Assembly (NCBI GenBank): GCA_951406725.2
Contig: OX597820.1
Span: 79,732,001-79,796,000, forward strand
Direction of reading: 5' to 3'
Origin: Octopus vulgaris
Lineage: Eukaryota
Length of the DNA: 64,000 nucleotides
Shown: positions 14,004 to 60,252 of the stretch, in pieces
How the letters are laid out: each line of letters opens with the position of its first letter
Numbering within the stretch: position 1 is the first letter of the stretch
Position numbers and translations under genes: made by a program
Notes under the pieces: model-generated
Databases searched by the model: none
What the model saw: only the letters and a program-made list of their open reading frames with translations
Told to the model about the DNA's origin: nothing

Positions 14004-14032
14004 TTTGAAAATGCAATTTAAACGATGTTTAT

Positions 14033-14077
14033 TTACTTAACCGGTTTCACTCTTTGGTAAAAGATTGTCAAAAGTAA
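14033..14077 (-). ncRNA. Minimal type I hammerhead-like ribozyme, U3:A8 core, in the sense 3' pLTR
   Basis: ttactt-TTGACAA-tcttt tacc aaaga gt-GAAA-ccgg-TT-aagtaa; 6-bp stem I; 2-nt bulge before GAAA. Confidence 0.7.
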
Positions 14078-14654
14078 CATTTAAGGAAACATTGAATAAT
14101 ATGGGTTCAAAAAAAGTTTTTTACATAATTGTCACATTGAATATTATGCATTCAAAAAAGTTTTTTACATAATTGTCACATTGGATATTATGAATTCAAA
14201 AATGTTTTTTTATACATAATTGTCACATTACATGTATAAATATAGTGTTTGGTAACAGAGAAGTTCAATAGTGTGATGAGAATATTTGGGAAAATTTGGC
14301 AGAAAAGGATAAAACAAATATATTATTGGGAATTGGTTGCGTTAATTATTGGTTGTCGCAAATTGTCACATTACATGTATATATATACAATCTTTGGTAT
14401 ATATATACAGCCTTTTGACAGCAAAAATTAAAATGGATTTTTTATACATCTCAGAATATTTTAAGTTCAAGGCGAGAATATGTTTTTACTGACCTGTCGG
14501 TATTAGCAGAAAGGCTGAACTGAGAGAAAAGAAGAAGTAGCCAATGTGGTGTATACTTCCCCTTTATGCATGAATGATTTTGGGGTTATCAGGAGGTTAG
14601 TATGCGGGTGTGAATAGATGTGTCCGTGCCTGCTGGTCAGATAGCGTCTGTTTG

Positions 14655-15464
14655 TCACACACATATATATATACACTCACACACACACACACAACAACAC
14701 ACACACACATAGTATACAAACACACACCACATACAAACAACACACACACACACACACAGAACACACACACCCACACACAACGCACCCACATATATCACAT
14801 ATACACACAGCACACAAATATAACATGTATCTATATATAACATACACAGATATATAACACACATACACACACACAACACACACACACACACACACACACA
14901 CAACACACGCACACATACATACATAATATAAATATCACACAAATACACCTAGCATATATATACACATACAATACACACATACAGCATGTAAATAATACAC
15001 ATACACAATATATGCATGCAATATACATACGCAATACATACATATAATATATATATATATAGACAATGCATATACATATATACATATATACATATAAATA
15101 GTGTTTACATACACATACATAGATGTACCACATATACACACAATATACATACATACAATGCATACACATACACGTACGCATACATATAATATATATACAC
15201 ACACACACACATAACATACATACACAATGCATACATATATATACATGCAATGCATATACATGTATTCATGCATATATAGCACACCTACAATATACATATA
15301 TACAATGCACACATACACACACATATATACACTTAATTGTACACATACATATACAATACACATACATACAATATCCATATACACAATGCGCATGCAAATA
15401 ATGTACATGTTTATACACACATAAACATGCAAATAAATATACACACACACACATACACACACAC

Positions 15465-15508
<44 letters not shown>

Positions 15509-15703
15509 ATACATACATACATGCACATACATATATTTTTTCACACACATACACACACATATATATATATATATATATAAAATTCACCCCCCCCCACACA
15601 CAAATTACAAACCTATAGCGTACACACTCAAATATATCTCTACATCACACACACACAAACAAAGTACTAACATATACACACATACCATGCATATACACAC
15701 ACA

Positions 15704-15740
<37 letters not shown>

Positions 15741-15945
15741 AAAACAAATACACATGTAAATACATACACACGTACACAATGCTCACACACACACACACAC
15801 ATACACACACACCCGCACACAGTGCACACACACACGCACACACACACACACACATATATATACACCCGCGCACACACACACACAACGTGCACACACACAC
15901 ACACACACAACACTCACACACATACATCACCTACATATATATAAT
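14655..15945. repeat. Cryptic (CA/TA)-rich microsatellite within the PLE 3' region
   Basis: Direct reading; lies between the endonuclease stop and the 3' pLTR. Confidence 0.9.
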
Positions 15946-16094
15946 GCATGCGTGTGCATGCCACGTATGTGTGCGGTCAATGCCCGCTAGTGTGTCCTAT
16001 GCGTGCCGATGCGCGCATGTGCCCGCCCGCACGATATGCTGTGAGCGTGCGCGCATCTCTGTGTGCTTGCTCTGGATGTGTTTCCAGGGTTATG

Positions 16095-18371
16095 TTAGAG
16101 TATGTTTAGTTGTGGTCTGTATTTTTGAATAAGATTACTTTCCTTATTTATTCGTGTTTGGTCTGTGGTGTTGTCCGAGCATTGGTATAGTGGGAAGACT
16201 AAGAATTTGGGGGACTTATTGTGTGCACAAAGGTCTAAGTGTCCACTTAGTGGTATCTGTCTTGTGGAGGGTCCCTCAGTTGTTGTCGGTGAACTGTCAT
16301 TCTTTCTCTGAGGATAAGGCTCGTTTGCCCTATGTAGTCTTCGTGGCATCCTTCACACCTTATGACGTAGAGTAAATTTTTTGATGCGCACGTGAAATTA
16401 TTTTTTATGATGAATGTGTGTCCCGAGTGGAACTTGTACGACGATCCCTCAATGAGGTGGATGCAGGTCTTGCAGTTGGGGCGACCACATTTTTTGATGG
16501 TGGGCGGTGGGTTTGTGTTGTGTAATTTTGCGTTGGTGAGGAGGTTTTTTAGGGATTTAGGTTGTCTCTTACTTTTTATTATTTTATGAGCTGCCGGTAT
16601 TTTTTTCAGGCGTGGGTCTTGATTTAGTTGTGGAATGTTGTTGTATATAATAGTGTAAGCTTCTGCATTCCTTGGGTTGTGTGTTGAGAGATAAGGGAGG
16701 CTATTTACTGTACTGTGGATGTGTTTGGGTTTTCGAAGGTCTTGAATGTTGATTGATTTGGCCCGTTCTATTCCGTTGTCTACTAGTGATGCCGGGTAAT
16801 GTCTTTCGAGAAGAATTGCCCTTAGTTCCCGGAGTCTTCTATTTCGTGTTGTGCCATTTGAGACAATAGTGCAGATTCTTCTCGCTAGGTTGAAGGGGAT
16901 ATTTGTCTTTGTGTGTTTTGGGTGATTGGAGGTGAATAGAAGGTATTGTTTAGAGTCAGTGGGTTTGTAATGGATGTCAGTTTCAATGTTGACGCCTTTT
17001 TTAATGATTAGGATGTCAAGAAAAGGGAGTTGGTCCTGACTATATTCCATTGTGAATTGAATGTTGTTATTTACACTGTTGATAAGGTTTTTGAAGTCTA
17101 TAAGTTGGTCGAGTGTGTGGGACCATAGGATGAGGCAATCATCTAAGTAGCGTTTCCAGTTCTCCAACAGGTATTTGTGGAAAGACTGGCCGTACTTATA
17201 TTTGGATTTTTCATAGATATGTGATTCCAGGTAGGCCATCACCAGGTTTGCATAGGTAGGTGCAACTTTCGTACCCATTGCAGTTCCTGAGACCTGTCTG
17301 TAAGTGTTGTTGTGGAAATACATGAAGTTGTTTTGCAGAATAAATTTGAGGCCCTCAATTATGAATTCTTTTTTAATTCTTTCCGGGATCTCATTGGGAT
17401 ATTTATCCAGCCAGAATTTAATGGCTTCCAGTCCATATTCATGTGGGATTGTGGTGTAAAGATTAATAACATCAAAAGAAACGATTAAGGTGTCTTTATC
17501 GGCATGTTTGGGGAGATGGTTTAATAGGTCCAGGTCATCTCTTACAATACTTGGAATGTGTTTCAGTATTGGCTTTAAGATGATATCTATAATGTTGCTA
17601 AGTCTGTGTGTTTCACAACTTGGGCCTGCCACTATTGGTCTCAGTTTGAGATCAGTGGGATGTGGTATAGTGATGCAGGTTGAAGTGGACTTTTTGCAAG
17701 CTTCTGTGATAATTTGACTCTTGTGTATTTTTGGAAGCCCATAGAGTGTGCTGGTTTTGCAATTAAATTTAGTAATGTAGTCGCATTCCTTTGCTGTCAA
17801 GTCATTCCGGTGTTGGTAAATGAGTGCCTTCAGATTGGTCATTGTTTTGGATTGCTGGTAGTCGACTACTCTTTCGTAGTATGTGGTATCCTCTAAAAGG
17901 AGAGATACAGAGTTTTTTATATGGCTCAGTATTCATAACAACGACCGTACTACCCTTATCAGCTTCCTTTATTGTGACGTCATGATTGTCTCGTAGCGTA
18001 TGGATGATTTCCCATCCTCTTTTACTGGTGTTGGGTTTGAGTTTAGGTTGTGGGAGTTCACCATAAGGGAAGTTGGAGATGTAATCGCAAAATTTGTCTA
18101 AGGTTTTGTTTTTGCCTTTTATGGGATTATAGTTGCTTTTGTTACAGACCATTGATTCGTCGTTATTATTAGTTTTCCTGTCAAAAAATTCCTCTGTGAG
18201 GCGTAATTTTCTGCAAAAGTGCGAGATGTCATCCTGTATTTCCCTCAGGTTAGGGTATTGCGGAGTTGGGGTGAATTTTAGTCCTCTTGAAAGGATTTTT
18301 ATTTGTGGTGTCGACAGGTTTAGGTTAGAAAGATTCACTATTTTTGGTTTTTCGGGGTTGGTATCTACCAT
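16095..18371 (-). pseudogene. PLE polyprotein: N-terminal domain, reverse transcriptase, Cys-rich linker, GIY-YIG endonuclease; two frameshifts (~17890, ~16270)
   Basis: IVNLS..ILSRGLKFTPTP; LRPIVAG; SFDVINLYTTIPH; YRQVSGTAMGTKVAPTYANL; WKRYLDDC; LPFLDI; CGRPNCKTC; LLYVIRC..YIGQT..LRERM..H; C-terminus ..KESNLIQKYRPQLN in ORF 16095-16349. Confidence 0.92.
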
Positions 18372-19120
18372 CTGGTGTCGTGGAAACTGATGCCCTTGCC
18401 TAAAAAAGGAATCCTGGGGGTTCTTCTATTTGCGGTATTTTGCTGTATGTGATTCTGTCCCCCGTTGACATGTCTGTTGAAGAGGTTTTGGTTGTTGTGA
18501 TTCTGTCCCCCGTTGCTATGTTGTCTGTTGAGGAGGTTTTGGTTGTTCCAGGGTCTGGGTTGTTGGTGTGGCCTCCTGGAAGAGTTTTGGTTATTCCAGG
18601 GTTTGGGTTGTTTGTCCTGGGTGTAATGTTGGTTCCTTAGAGTGGGTTGGAAACTATATTCATGGTTTAGAAGTGAATTCCTATATGTTGGGGGAGAACT
18701 CTGAGTTAGGAGCGGTTTGGGTTGGAATCTACAATCATAGTTCAGAGATGGGTTTCTAAGTGATGGGTAGGATCTCCGAATCTGGAACGGTTCTTGTGTG
18801 GGTTGGGGTCTACGTTGTCTGGTAAAGTTTTGTCGTGTGATGATGGGTGTCTCGGTTCTTTTGATGGGATTGTAGTGCTGTCTGTAAGTTCTGTTGTTGT
18901 TGTTGTCGATGTTAGGGGTGGTGTGTGTTCGGTGTTTTGTGGTTGGTTTTCTTTGTTTTTGGCGAGGGGTGTGAGTTGAAGTAGATATTTTAAAATATGG
19001 GTTGCTTGAAAGGTGTTCCTTTGTGAACTCTGTTTCATAATTGGTGAACCAGCTGTTTTTTTCCATTCGCTGGAGGGATGTTATTTCTTCATCCTCGCAG
19101 TTTTTTCTCCAGAGTTTGGT
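18365..19120 (-). CDS. Upstream ORF of the PLE (N/Q/R/P-rich, repetitive), 5'-truncated by the inverted pLTR
   Basis: About 250 open codons with QPKPWNNQN / QPRPWNNQN / GGQNHNNQN repeats; the annotated start lies inside the inverted repeat. Confidence 0.55.
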   Translation of the reverse strand, partial: TKLWRKNCEDEEITSLQRMEKNSWFTNYETEFTKEHLSSNPYFKISTSTHTPRQKQRKPTTKHRTHTTPNIDNNNNRTYRQHYNPIKRTETPIITRQNFTRQRRPQPTQEPFQIRRSYPSLRNPSLNYDCRFQPKPLLTQSSPPTYRNSLLNHEYSFQPTLRNQHYTQDKQPKPWNNQNSSRRPHQQPRPWNNQNLLNRQHSNGGQNHNNQNLFNRHVNGGQNHIQQNTANRRTPRIPFLGKGISFHDTRW

Positions 19121-19687
19121 GCTATCTGACCAGCAGGCACGGACACATCTATTCACACCCGCATACTAACCTCCTGATAACCCCAAAATCATTCATGCAT
19201 AAAGGGGAAGTATACACCACATTGGCTACTTCTTCTTTTCTCTCAGTTCAGCCTTTCTGCTAATACCGACAGGTCAGTAAAAACATATTCTCGCCTTGAA
19301 CTTAAAATATTCTGAGATGTATAAAAAATCCATTTTAATTTTTGCTGTCAAAAGGCTGTATATATATACCAAAGATTGTATATATATACATGTAATGTGA
19401 CAATTTGCGACAACCAATAATTAACGCAACCAATTCCCAATAATATATTTGTTTTATCCTTTTCTGCCAAATTTTCCCAAATATTCTCATCACACTATTG
19501 AACTTCTCTGTTACCAAACACTATATTTATACATGTAATGTGACAATTATGTATAAAAAAACATTTTTGAATTCATTAATATCCAATGTGACAATTATGT
19601 AAAAAACTTTTTGAATGCATATATTCAATGTGACAATTATGTAAAAAACTTTTTTTGAACCCATATTATTCAATGTTTCCTTAAATG

Positions 19688-19732
19688 TTACTTTTGACAA
19701 TCTTTTACCAAAGAGTGAAACCGGTTAAGTAA
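19688..19732 (+). ncRNA. Minimal type I hammerhead-like ribozyme, U3:A8 core, in the inverted pLTR
   Basis: Exact inverted copy of 14033-14077. Confidence 0.7.
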
Positions 19733-19796
19733 ATAAACATCGTTTAAATTGCATTTTCAAACCTTTTTTCTTATATAATCCCACTCGTGCGATACC

Positions 19797-29589: not shown

Positions 29590-30730
29590 AAAAACAGTTC
29601 AGTACCGGTTTCAGTCATTGAGACTTTTTCAACTGTAAGTATGGAAAACAATTAAATTTTGGAAAAATTAAAAGAAAAGTTTTTTAAAAGAATATTTGCA
29701 TAGTATTCAAATACAAGAGGCATTTTCCTTGTTTCTGCCTGTCTCTGTCTCGTTTACTCCTATGTGTTCGAGGTCGTTGTGAATTCTTGGCAGAGAAGAA
29801 GAAGAAGAAGAAGAAAGAAGAAGAAGAAGAAGAAGAAGAAGAAGAAGAAGAAGAAGAAGAAGAAGAAGAAGAAGAAGAAGAGAGGAGAAGAAGAATGCGG
29901 GAGTGCCATGATAGTAGTAGGATGTTAAATGGTCAAGTGACCTGAAAGTGATTTGTTGTGGATGGTAGTTGTGATTGAATTCTTGAGACATCACTTTTGA
30001 ATGTATTGTTTATAATATTTGCGTAGGTGTTATTCTAAACAGCAGTAGTAGTCATAAAGTAAGGAAGGAGGTGGCGGAGAGGAAGACGACGAAGAAGGAG
30101 AAAGAGAAGAGAGAATAATAAGGGATGGTATGATAGTAGTAGGACGTTAAATGGTCAAGTAACATAAAATTGACTCGTTGTGGATTATAGCAGTGATTGC
30201 GAGTGCTTTTTAATGAATTCTTGGGTATCATTTGAATGTATCATTTTTAATATTTGCGTGTGTGTTTGTGTTATTCTAAGGCTGTGGTGGATATGGCATA
30301 TGCTGTAGACGCGTTCAAAAGGGGTCTGTATTTTGTAATAAAGAGAGTCCCTTTACTAATTCGTTGGCTACAGGTTGTATCGTCCCTGAACTGGTGGAGG
30401 GGAGAAATTCTGAAGTTTGGATTTTAGTTATGTCGATGTGTTGGCTGAATGCTGTTTTTCTGTTTTGGAGAATTTTGATCTGGGATCTGTGCAGAGCTAT
30501 TCTTTTACGTAGACTGTTTTTGTTTGGCCTATGCATTGCTCTTGACACTCTGAGCAGGTTAGTGCGCATATCAGGTTCTCTGAAGCACACGAGAAGCTGT
30601 TTTTCACTGTGAAACGTTGTCCTTGTTTGAAGGAGAACTCTGATCCCTCAATTAAATTGACGCATATCCAAGCTTCAGAATTTACCCCCTCTACCAATTC
30701 TAACTGGGTTCCCACCTGCAAGGTCATTTA
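29590..30730 (-). mobile_element. 5'-truncated Neptune-type PLE (decayed GIY-YIG plus 3' UTR with (GAA)n)
   Basis: CVNLIEGSEFSFKQGQRFTVKNSFSCASENLICALTCSECQEQCIGQT and LRKRIALHRSQI align with the EN at 16250-16490. Confidence 0.75.
29600..29635 (-). ncRNA. Minimal type I hammerhead-like ribozyme, U3:A8 core
   Basis: cag-TTGAAAA-agtc tcaat gact-GAAA-ccgg-TA-ctg; perfect 4-bp stem II; GUA site. Confidence 0.75.
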
Positions 30731-42674: not shown

Positions 42675-42735
42675 GATAAAACTCCGAGTCTCGGATGTCA
42701 GGGCGGAAATCCACGCTAGCATCTCTTCAGTTATC
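42675..42735 (-). ncRNA. Hammerhead-like motif, GAAA mutated to GAGA
   Basis: gataa-CTGAAGA-gatg...catc c-GAGA-ctcggag-TT-ttatc. Confidence 0.6.
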
Positions 42736-42796
42736 GATAACTGAAGAGATGCCGACGTGGATTTCCGCTCCTACATCCGAATCTCGGAGTTTTATC
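42736..42796 (+). ncRNA. Hammerhead-like motif, GAAA mutated to GAAU
   Basis: gataa-CTGAAGA-gatg...catc c-GAAT-ctcggag-TT-ttatc. Confidence 0.6.
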
Positions 42797-43000: not shown

Positions 43001-43050
43001 TTTGTCAAAATATTTTCGTCGCTAAAGTCCGCGACCTGTTCACTGACAAA
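43001..43050 (-). ncRNA. Minimal type I hammerhead-like ribozyme, G3:C8 core
   Basis: tttgtca-GTGAACA-g-gtcgc ggacttta gcgac-GAAA-atat-TT-tgacaaa; 7-bp stem I and 5-bp stem II, both perfect. Confidence 0.78.
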
Positions 43051-59550: not shown

Positions 59551-59553
<3 letters not shown>

Positions 59554-59945
59554 ACAGAAAGAGAGGAATTTCGATTATCCCCATATGGTGAGTTGTAATA
59601 TATATAAGAAATTAAAGAAGGAAAATCTACACACTTTACATAGTTTTAATATAACTTTTAATATATCTTGTACTGTTTTTGTCGACTGGTTTCGCTTTCG
59701 CTATTCATGACATTAAAATTTATTTAAACAAATACTTTCTTAAGAAAGCTTTCGGTCCATGATGTGTGTGAAATTTATGATTTAATGAGTCAAGTAGAAA
59801 ACTAAGGGGAGGTAATTGGTTATCGTTATTATTGTGGGCAGTGCGATAACTGTTCAGTTTGATAGGGGGTGGGGAAATATATATAGATATACACAGAAAA
59901 GTTAGTTATGCTTGCATATTTAGACGCGTTCTGTATTTTTCGATG

Positions 59946-59947
<2 letters not shown>
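59551..59947 (-). mobile_element. Short PLE-like insertion between two (TA)n tracts
   Basis: About 400 bp of unique sequence flanked by (TA)n, carrying an HHR-like fold. Confidence 0.6.
59680..59712 (-). ncRNA. Minimal type I hammerhead-like ribozyme, A3:U8 core
   Basis: tgtc-ATGAATA-gc gaaa gc-GAAA-ccag-TC-gaca; GNRA-capped stem II; GUC site. Confidence 0.72.
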
Positions 59948-60024
<77 letters not shown>

Positions 60025-60059
60025 TGTATGTATGTATGTATGTATGTATCAATGTATAT

Positions 60060-60252
60060 ATATTCTTTTACTTGTTTCAGACATTTGACTGCAGCCATGG
60101 TGTAGCACCGGCTTTAGTCGAACAAATGACCCCAGAACTTATTCTTTGCAAGCCTAGTACTTATTCTGTCGGTCTCTCTTGCCGACCTGCTAACATCGGT
60201 TGTTAAGCGATGGTGGGGGGAAAACACAGACACAAACACACACACACATACA

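What the first reader, a model, noticed from the sequence alone, without database searches (positions are those of the whole stretch)
59680..59712. 33-nt A3:U8 hammerhead
Seen: tgtc/gaca stem I, AUGAAUA core, gc-GAAA-gc stem II, GAAA, ccag (one change from the ccgg palindrome) and a GUC site, inside a (TA)n-flanked insertion. It completes the four possible 3:8 pairs and is the smallest fold in the window. Short helices make a chance match more plausible than for 43001.
Basis: partly seen in the sequence, partly recalled or inferred. Interest (0 to 1): 0.78.

Follow-up and report, generated by a model that had tools for sequence, protein, structure and literature searches.

The report
A3:U8 hammerhead in Penelope retroelement end
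This is a real but decayed copy of a tiny self-cleaving RNA motif that a known class of jumping gene (Penelope-like elements) carries at its ends; the one unusual feature is that the whole family uses an A-U pair where textbook hammerheads use C-G.

Summary
The motif is real and lies on the minus strand (59712→59680); shuffles give 0.017 such matches per window. It sits in the 3' pseudo-LTR of a 397-nt, 5'-truncated Penelope-like element (PLE; Neptune-like, RT plus C-terminal GIY-YIG) inserted in (TA)n. A second, older family also has A3:U8 (20 of 25). Two sister PLE families carry U3:A8 on the same scaffold (25 of 25, 20 of 20), and stem I changes are compensatory, so the 3:8 pair covaries naturally. 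Two intact copies co-fold in silico as a double hammerhead; this copy's CCAG change breaks that, so it is probably dead. Minimal dimeric hammerheads in PLEs and the U3:A8 core are published. I found no report of a natural A3:U8 core, but the most relevant survey (Lünse 2017) was not available. Activity is untested, and one mutational scan found only the G:C swap rescues. Verdict: new variant of a known kind, modest interest.

The parts
59680..59712 (-). Minimal type I hammerhead motif, 33 nt. A3=59708, U8=59703, G12=59693, A15.1=59690, C17=59684; predicted cut between 59684 and 59683
   Evidence: family conservation; covariation
59702..59708 (-). Core positions 3-9 (AUGAAUA) with the A3:U8 pair; A3-U4-G5 also spells an AUG
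   Evidence: A3 72 of 73, U8 70 of 73, both 69 of 73 copies
59694..59701 (-). Stem II, 2 G-C pairs with a 4-nt loop, no extra base after A9
   Evidence: loop varies between subfamilies while the stem is kept
59685..59690 (-). Stem III hexamer; palindromic ACCGGU in the family, ACCAGU here (G>A at a CpG, 59687)
   Evidence: CCGG 55 of 73, CCAG 5 of 73 other copies; duplex energies
59551..59947 (-). 5'-truncated Neptune-like Penelope-like element (end of ORF, 3' UTR/pLTR, tail); the only copy of this family in the window
59906..59947 (-). Last 13 codons and stop of the PLE ORF (C-terminus of the GIY-YIG domain), followed by an internal deletion of about 80 nt relative to other copies
59551..59600 (-). 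About 50-nt optional 3' 'tail'; family copies end either before or after it
   Evidence: PLE tail described in PMC11167929
59482..59550 (.). (TA)n array at the 3' junction (target)
59948..60063 (.). (TA)n/(TATG)n array at the 5' junction

Best explanation
A minimal type I hammerhead carried in the pLTR of a Neptune-like Penelope-like retrotransposon. SHOWN: the motif, its place after the RT-EN ORF and about 170 nt before the ORF start in 5' pLTRs, family-wide A3:U8, and covariation of 3:8 and stem I across PLE families. INFERRED from published hammerhead work: one copy cannot close stem III, so two copies (tandem pLTRs on one transcript, or two RNAs) pair their ACCGGU palindromes into a double hammerhead. 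Each core then cuts the partner after GUC. G12 acts as base and the 2'-OH of residue 8 as acid, so the base at 8 can change if it still pairs with 3. Cleavage is probably slow or protein-assisted and processes only some transcripts, since copies were reverse-transcribed from uncut RNA. This particular copy is an old, solitary, mutated relic and is probably inactive.
For: Chance 0.017 per window. 2047 first-look candidates for the element in G000; 700 exact A3:U8 scaffold matches, reversed-pattern control 0. Upstream RT and C-terminal GIY-YIG in a 635-aa open frame: Pfam RVT_1 E 1e-6 (28.9 bits, just under the 29.6 cut-off), GIY-YIG E 2e-6. A3:U8 in 69 of 73 unique copies, 49 of 53 among those found without the motif in the query. 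Subfamily differences inside the motif fall only on N7, loop II and a compensated stem I pair. Family C has A:U in 20 of 25; families D and E have U:A in 25 of 25 and 20 of 20, with PLE ORF upstream. Pair counts on 17 hand-picked rows: 3:8 AU 11, UA 5, unpaired 1; 4 of 4 stem I pairs change on both sides; slid controls 19-36% paired against 93.5%. Two intact copies co-fold as a double hammerhead at -14.9 kcal/mol; the window copy does not (stem III duplex -8.3 intact, -2.4 mixed, +1.4 window/window). Precedent: PMC4209133, PMC3088659, PMC11167929, PMC6155905.
Against: No cleavage was measured. In a full double-mutant scan of a type III hammerhead only the G:C swap rescued the 3:8 pair; all other mutants there were low (PMC9901934, passages). 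Stem II has only 2 bp and the monomer does not fold better than shuffles. None of 13 full-length 5' ends starts at the cut site; 10 extend upstream of it. PMC11167929 found cleavage dispensable for insertion in vitro. rows were chosen with a core pattern, five of them via a pattern excluding A3/U8, and rows within a family are related, so they stand for few independent events. The two pair-level measures did not exceed shuffles (343 and 383 of 500). The subfamily result alone is weak (3 changes, about p 0.06 by my estimate).
Confidence: 0.8

Rival explanations
1. Hammerhead-derived but catalytically silent: the A3:U8 lineage keeps the fold as a binding or dimerisation handle for the PLE protein, not as a cutter.
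For: A:U did not rescue in the type III scan; reverse-transcribed templates carry uncut motifs and 5' ends do not pile at the cut; PMC4209133 leaves non-cleavage roles open.
Against: G5, A6, A9, G12-A14, A15.1:U16.1 and H17 are kept across families whose proteins are only about 50-60% identical; U3:A8 also failed to rescue in that scan yet is natural and reported active in vitro elsewhere, so the scan is context-bound.
Confidence: 0.13
2. Dual use: A3-U4-G5 forms an upstream AUG in the 5' leader, and cleavage removes it, linking ribozyme action to translation of the ORF.
For: In 7 of 8 full-length 5' copies the core AUG is intact and opens a short frame (8-23 codons in six, 61 in one) that ends before the main ATG 159-210 nt downstream.
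Against: Frame relative to the main ATG varies (0, 1, 2) and length differs by subfamily; U3:A8 sister families lack the AUG; a second AUG-stop remains downstream of the cut in subfamily B; the cut product would be uncapped.
Confidence: 0.05
3. Chance resemblance inherited passively by a high-copy repeat.
For: Short helices, no Rfam hit, and dead copies share sequence by descent alone.
Against: Same position and scaffold in four PLE families, with double changes at 3:8 and in stem I while flanks diverge; known location of PLE hammerheads.
Confidence: 0.02

Closest known systems
Minimal type I hammerheads of metazoan PLE pLTRs (Cervera and De la Peña 2014, PMC4209133)
   Same: In the pLTR of an RT + GIY-YIG element; short stem I; palindromic stem III needing a dimer; many solitary copies from truncated elements; G10.1-C11.1 pair
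   Different: A3:U8 core (their 56 representatives show C3:G8, two U3:A8 and one U3 with G8, none A3:U8); stem II of 2 bp where their listed examples mostly have 4-8; no extra base after A9; 4-nt palindrome between 15.1 and 16.1 (2 nt in most of theirs)
U3:A8 core variants (Schistosoma Cercyon PLEs, PMC4209133; Perreault 2011, PMC3088659)
   Same: Natural double change at 3:8; 2-bp stem II also reported by Perreault; U3:A8 occurs here in sister families D and E
   Different: Purine and pyrimidine are swapped (A at 3, U at 8)
Small dimer-cleaving PLE hammerhead variants (Lünse, Weinberg, Breaker 2017)
   Same: By title and by the summary in PMC6765202: short palindromic stem III, PLE-linked, cleave as dimers
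   Different: Could not be read; whether its alignment already holds A3:U8 is unknown
Poseidon PAc hammerhead (Frangieh 2024, PMC11167929)
   Same: pLTR hammerhead, tail from two RT start sites, AT-rich target, uncut RNA as template
   Different: C3:G8 core; its ORF starts inside the ribozyme, here about 170 nt downstream; different PLE clade
Neptune clade PLEs (Craig 2021, PMC8557442)
   Same: C-terminal GIY-YIG, CX2-5CxxC linker, microsatellite target, inverted 5'-truncated partners, tail
   Different: Clade not confirmed by RT phylogeny with references; Nematis shares the linker

Membership tests
Minimal type I hammerhead (PLE type) | Core U4 G5 A6 N7 N8 A9, G12 A13 A14, A15.1:U16.1, H17 | tested here: met
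   (61-72 of 73 per position)
Minimal type I hammerhead (PLE type) | Watson-Crick pair between positions 3 and 8 | tested here: met
   A:U 69 of 73 and 20 of 25; U:A 25 of 25 and 20 of 20 in sister families
Minimal type I hammerhead (PLE type) | Canonical C3:G8 identity | tested here: not met
   A3:U8; departures from C3:G8 are published
Minimal type I hammerhead (PLE type) | Stems I and II supported by covariation | tested here: inconclusive
   Stem I met: 4 of 4 pairs change on both sides. Stem II never varies in the 17 rows, so it gives no support either way
Minimal type I hammerhead (PLE type) | Palindromic stem III allowing a dimer (family) | tested here: met
   CCGG 55 of 73; double-hammerhead co-fold
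Minimal type I hammerhead (PLE type) | Palindromic stem III in this copy | tested here: not met
   CCAG; duplex +1.4 kcal/mol with itself
Minimal type I hammerhead (PLE type) | Site-specific self-cleavage after H17 | not testable with these tools
   needs an assay; contigs cannot show RNA ends
Rfam hammerhead families | Covariance-model hit | tested here: not met
   none up to E 10
Penelope-like element, EN+ | Single ORF with RT and GIY-YIG | tested here: met
   L100, 635 aa, Pfam RVT_1 and GIY-YIG
Penelope-like element, EN+ | pLTR at both ends, tail, inverted truncated partners | tested here: met
Neptune clade | CX2-5CxxC linker before a C-terminal EN; (TA)n target | tested here: met
   C-X4-C-X2-C in L100; junctions
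Neptune clade | RT phylogeny with reference elements (to exclude Nematis) | not tested
   no reference sequences held
Non-LTR retrozyme | Non-coding tandem repeats, each with a type I hammerhead | tested here: not met
   solitary copy that retains the ORF end; definition from 10.64898/2026.07.22.740005

The most novel reading that the evidence does not exclude
A3:U8 is an unreported natural hammerhead core, fixed in at least two PLE families about 50% apart in protein and present in hundreds of copies. It is active as a 33-nt dimer with a 2-bp stem II, so one genome holds natural ribozymes with all four Watson-Crick 3:8 pairs, two of them on one scaffold. A bolder add-on (about 0.05): the swap creates an upstream AUG that cleavage removes.
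Probability: 0.3. Interest if true: 0.55.

Novelty: new variant of a known kind. Interest (0 to 1): 0.37.

Why it matters
If active, it shows in nature that the hammerhead needs a pair at 3:8 rather than a guanine at 8, in the least favoured geometry, on one of the barest scaffolds known. It gives a natural A:U versus U:A series on one scaffold for testing that. Practically, searches fixed on CUGANGA miss whole high-copy families (700 exact copies here, no Rfam hit). It does not settle why PLEs carry hammerheads, and this copy has no likely function.

Tried and rejected
Rfam scans: only microsatellite-driven miRNA hits, no hammerhead. Monomer folding uninformative. Pfam on 7 short decayed fragments gave only weak hits; the intact 635-aa frame was needed. 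AUG(3-5) as the main ORF start: rejected, the ORF starts 159-210 nt downstream in no fixed frame. Cleavage defining the element's 5' end: not seen, 0 of 13. L192's U3:A8 as family-level covariation: rejected, it is one decayed copy of an A3:U8 family (1 of 25). An intron from the GT after the motif: no consistent acceptor AG before the ATG, no such joint listed. EN tree (100 aa, unrooted, decayed rows) groups the U:A family D with the young window family (support 0.90) apart from A:U families, but cannot give the direction of change; family E was not in it. Expression: no RNA holder listed; contigs cannot show ends. Earlier findings of this scan: nothing returned. Papers not held: Lünse 2017, Przybilski and Hammann 2007, Nelson and Uhlenbeck 2008, Arkhipova 2017. 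One supplementary file of PMC4209133 could not be searched; the supplements of PMC9901934 held no 3:8 rate data.

Full report
Observation. A relaxed one expects 0.043 in 300 shuffles and finds 3 in the real window. Rfam gives no hammerhead hit up to E 10, and the single strand folds no better than shuffles (z 0.57), as expected for a motif that cannot close stem III alone.

What it sits in. The 397 bases between the two (TA)n arrays (59551-59947) are a dispersed repeat: 2047 first-look candidates in the 2.8-Gb genome G000, best copies 79-88% identical. [quoted passage not shown] A 635-aa open frame in L100 hits Pfam RVT_1 (E 1e-6, slightly under the curated cut-off) and GIY-YIG (E 2e-6). The window copy begins with the last 13 codons and stop of that ORF, has an internal deletion of about 80 nt, and ends after a roughly 50-nt optional tail. 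In full-length copies the same segment precedes the ORF start, so it is the pLTR. Linker, domain order, (TA)n target and inverted truncated partners match the Neptune clade as described in PMC8557442 (passages); I did not exclude Nematis by phylogeny. The window copy differs from its subfamily majority at 43 of 339 positions and has no partner in the window.

Family test. Of 88 loci from three searches, 82 span the motif and 73 are unique. A3 is present in 72, U8 in 70 and both in 69 of 73. Among the 53 found with queries that did not contain the motif (3' flank or protein), 49 have the pair (my count). CCGG is present in 55 of 73; CCAG, a CpG-type decay, in 5 of 73. A pattern for the intact scaffold has 700 exact matches, reversed control 0; the subfamily A motif alone has 45. 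The two subfamilies differ at 34 of 310 compared positions; the three inside the motif are N7, loop II and a stem I base whose partner also changes. That alone is weak. Sequencing contigs under four organism labels hold the family; in the four runs laid, no change at positions 3 or 8 appears among the 40 rows shown, with 66 rows hidden.

Covariation. A search for the same scaffold without A3 and without U8 gave 6 matches, 5 of them U3:A8. Following them up: family D has U3:A8 in 25 of 25 copies, with same-strand PLE ORF upstream in 15 of 25 and about 60% protein identity to L100. Family E has U3:A8 in 20 of 20, with PLE ORF matches ending just upstream in many copies. L192 proved to be one decayed member of family C, which has A3:U8 in 20 of 25 and about 50% EN identity. 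On 17 hand-picked rows the 3:8 pair is AU 11, UA 5, unpaired 1; all four stem I pairs change on both sides; slid controls pair 19-36% against 93.5%. Two of the five shuffle measures were not exceeded, rows are related and were picked by pattern, so this is a few independent events, not 17. An unrooted EN tree separates U:A from A:U families but gives no direction.

Mechanism. Two intact natural copies co-fold as a double hammerhead with a 6-bp intermolecular stem III (-14.9 kcal/mol); the window copy with itself or with an intact copy does not. PMC4209133 (main text parts 1-2 of 4 and supplement parts 1-2 of 3) reports that such motifs show no monomer activity and low dimer activity. PMC11167929 (passages) shows a PLE hammerhead that cuts only with the element's protein, is partly rescued by the G:C swap, and is dispensable for insertion. 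PMC6155905 (passages) assigns the acid role to the 2'-OH of residue 8, which explains why its base can change. So the family motif is most likely a slow, dimer-dependent, possibly protein-assisted ribozyme, and this copy a dead one. These steps are inferred, not shown.

Against. PMC9901934 (passages) found that in a type III hammerhead only the G:C swap rescued 3:8. U3:A8 also failed there although natural and reported active in vitro (PMC3088659, part 3 of 8), so context matters. Of 30 loci at the ORF start, 13 have a same-strand pLTR directly upstream; none begins at the cut site, 10 begin upstream and 3 downstream of it (my reading). Every 3' copy was also reverse-transcribed through an uncut motif. 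The core AUG opens a short upstream frame in 7 of 8 5' copies examined, in no fixed frame with the ORF; sister families lack it, so a regulatory role is a long shot.

Known and new. Minimal dimeric hammerheads in pLTRs, the U3:A8 core and 2-bp stems II are published. The 56 representatives of PMC4209133 include no A3:U8. Searches for A3-U8 wording, for variant core strings and for cephalopod hammerheads found no natural case. Passages of PMC10085705, PMC7229834, PMC3884650 and PMC11014351 and parts 1-2 of 5 of 10.64898/2026.07.22.740005 gave none. Lünse 2017, the survey most likely to hold it, and Przybilski and Hammann 2007, which by its title tested exchanges of this pair, were not held, so absence from print is not established. 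The genome looks like an octopus to me from recall; no call tested that.

Verdict. Real, explained, and a new variant of a known kind: interest 0.37. If A3:U8 is both unreported and active (about 0.3), 0.55.

Noticed in passing
window 14030-19735: Near full-length copy of a very young Neptune-like PLE family (ORF about 16100-19100 minus, 58% identical to L100; 150 of 150 scored genome matches identical over the last 54 aa, open frames up to about 870 aa). It has a long microsatellite-like 3' UTR of about 2 kb and an inverted 5' partner.
   Followed up: partly
window 14030-14080 (-) and 19685-19735 (+): Two identical U3:A8 hammerheads of that young family, with a 6-bp stem I, ACCGGU palindrome and a U.U mismatch at 10.1-11.1. 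Being young, the best candidate here for an activity test.
   Followed up: partly
window 43001-43050 (-): G3:C8 hammerhead with AAUAUU palindrome; related copies in L265, L024, L062, L200 keep the core while stem II varies. Link to a PLE ORF not tested.
   Followed up: partly
window 29600-29635 (-): U3:A8 hammerhead about 680 nt after a decayed PLE EN (30664-30313); a related copy in L172 keeps the core.
   Followed up: partly
window 54001 (-) and 29159 (-): Decayed C3:G8 minimal hammerheads with a 2-nt palindrome; intact versions in L064, L195, and another type in L086, L163.
   Followed up: no
window 36212-35364 (-) and 3843-3733 (-): Older PLE ORF remnants; no hammerhead recognised downstream.
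   Followed up: partly
window 42696-42779: Long near-perfect inverted repeat centred near 42735; probably the junction of an inverted insertion.
   Followed up: no
window 43577 (-)/44099 (+) and 46480 (-)/47406 (+): Two inverted pairs of repeats containing CUGAUGA followed by GAAA but without a proper hammerhead stem III.
   Followed up: no
L020 (G000 C2:148750434-148751592): Two direct copies about 400 nt apart plus an inverted one, an arrangement that would allow an intramolecular double hammerhead.
   Followed up: no
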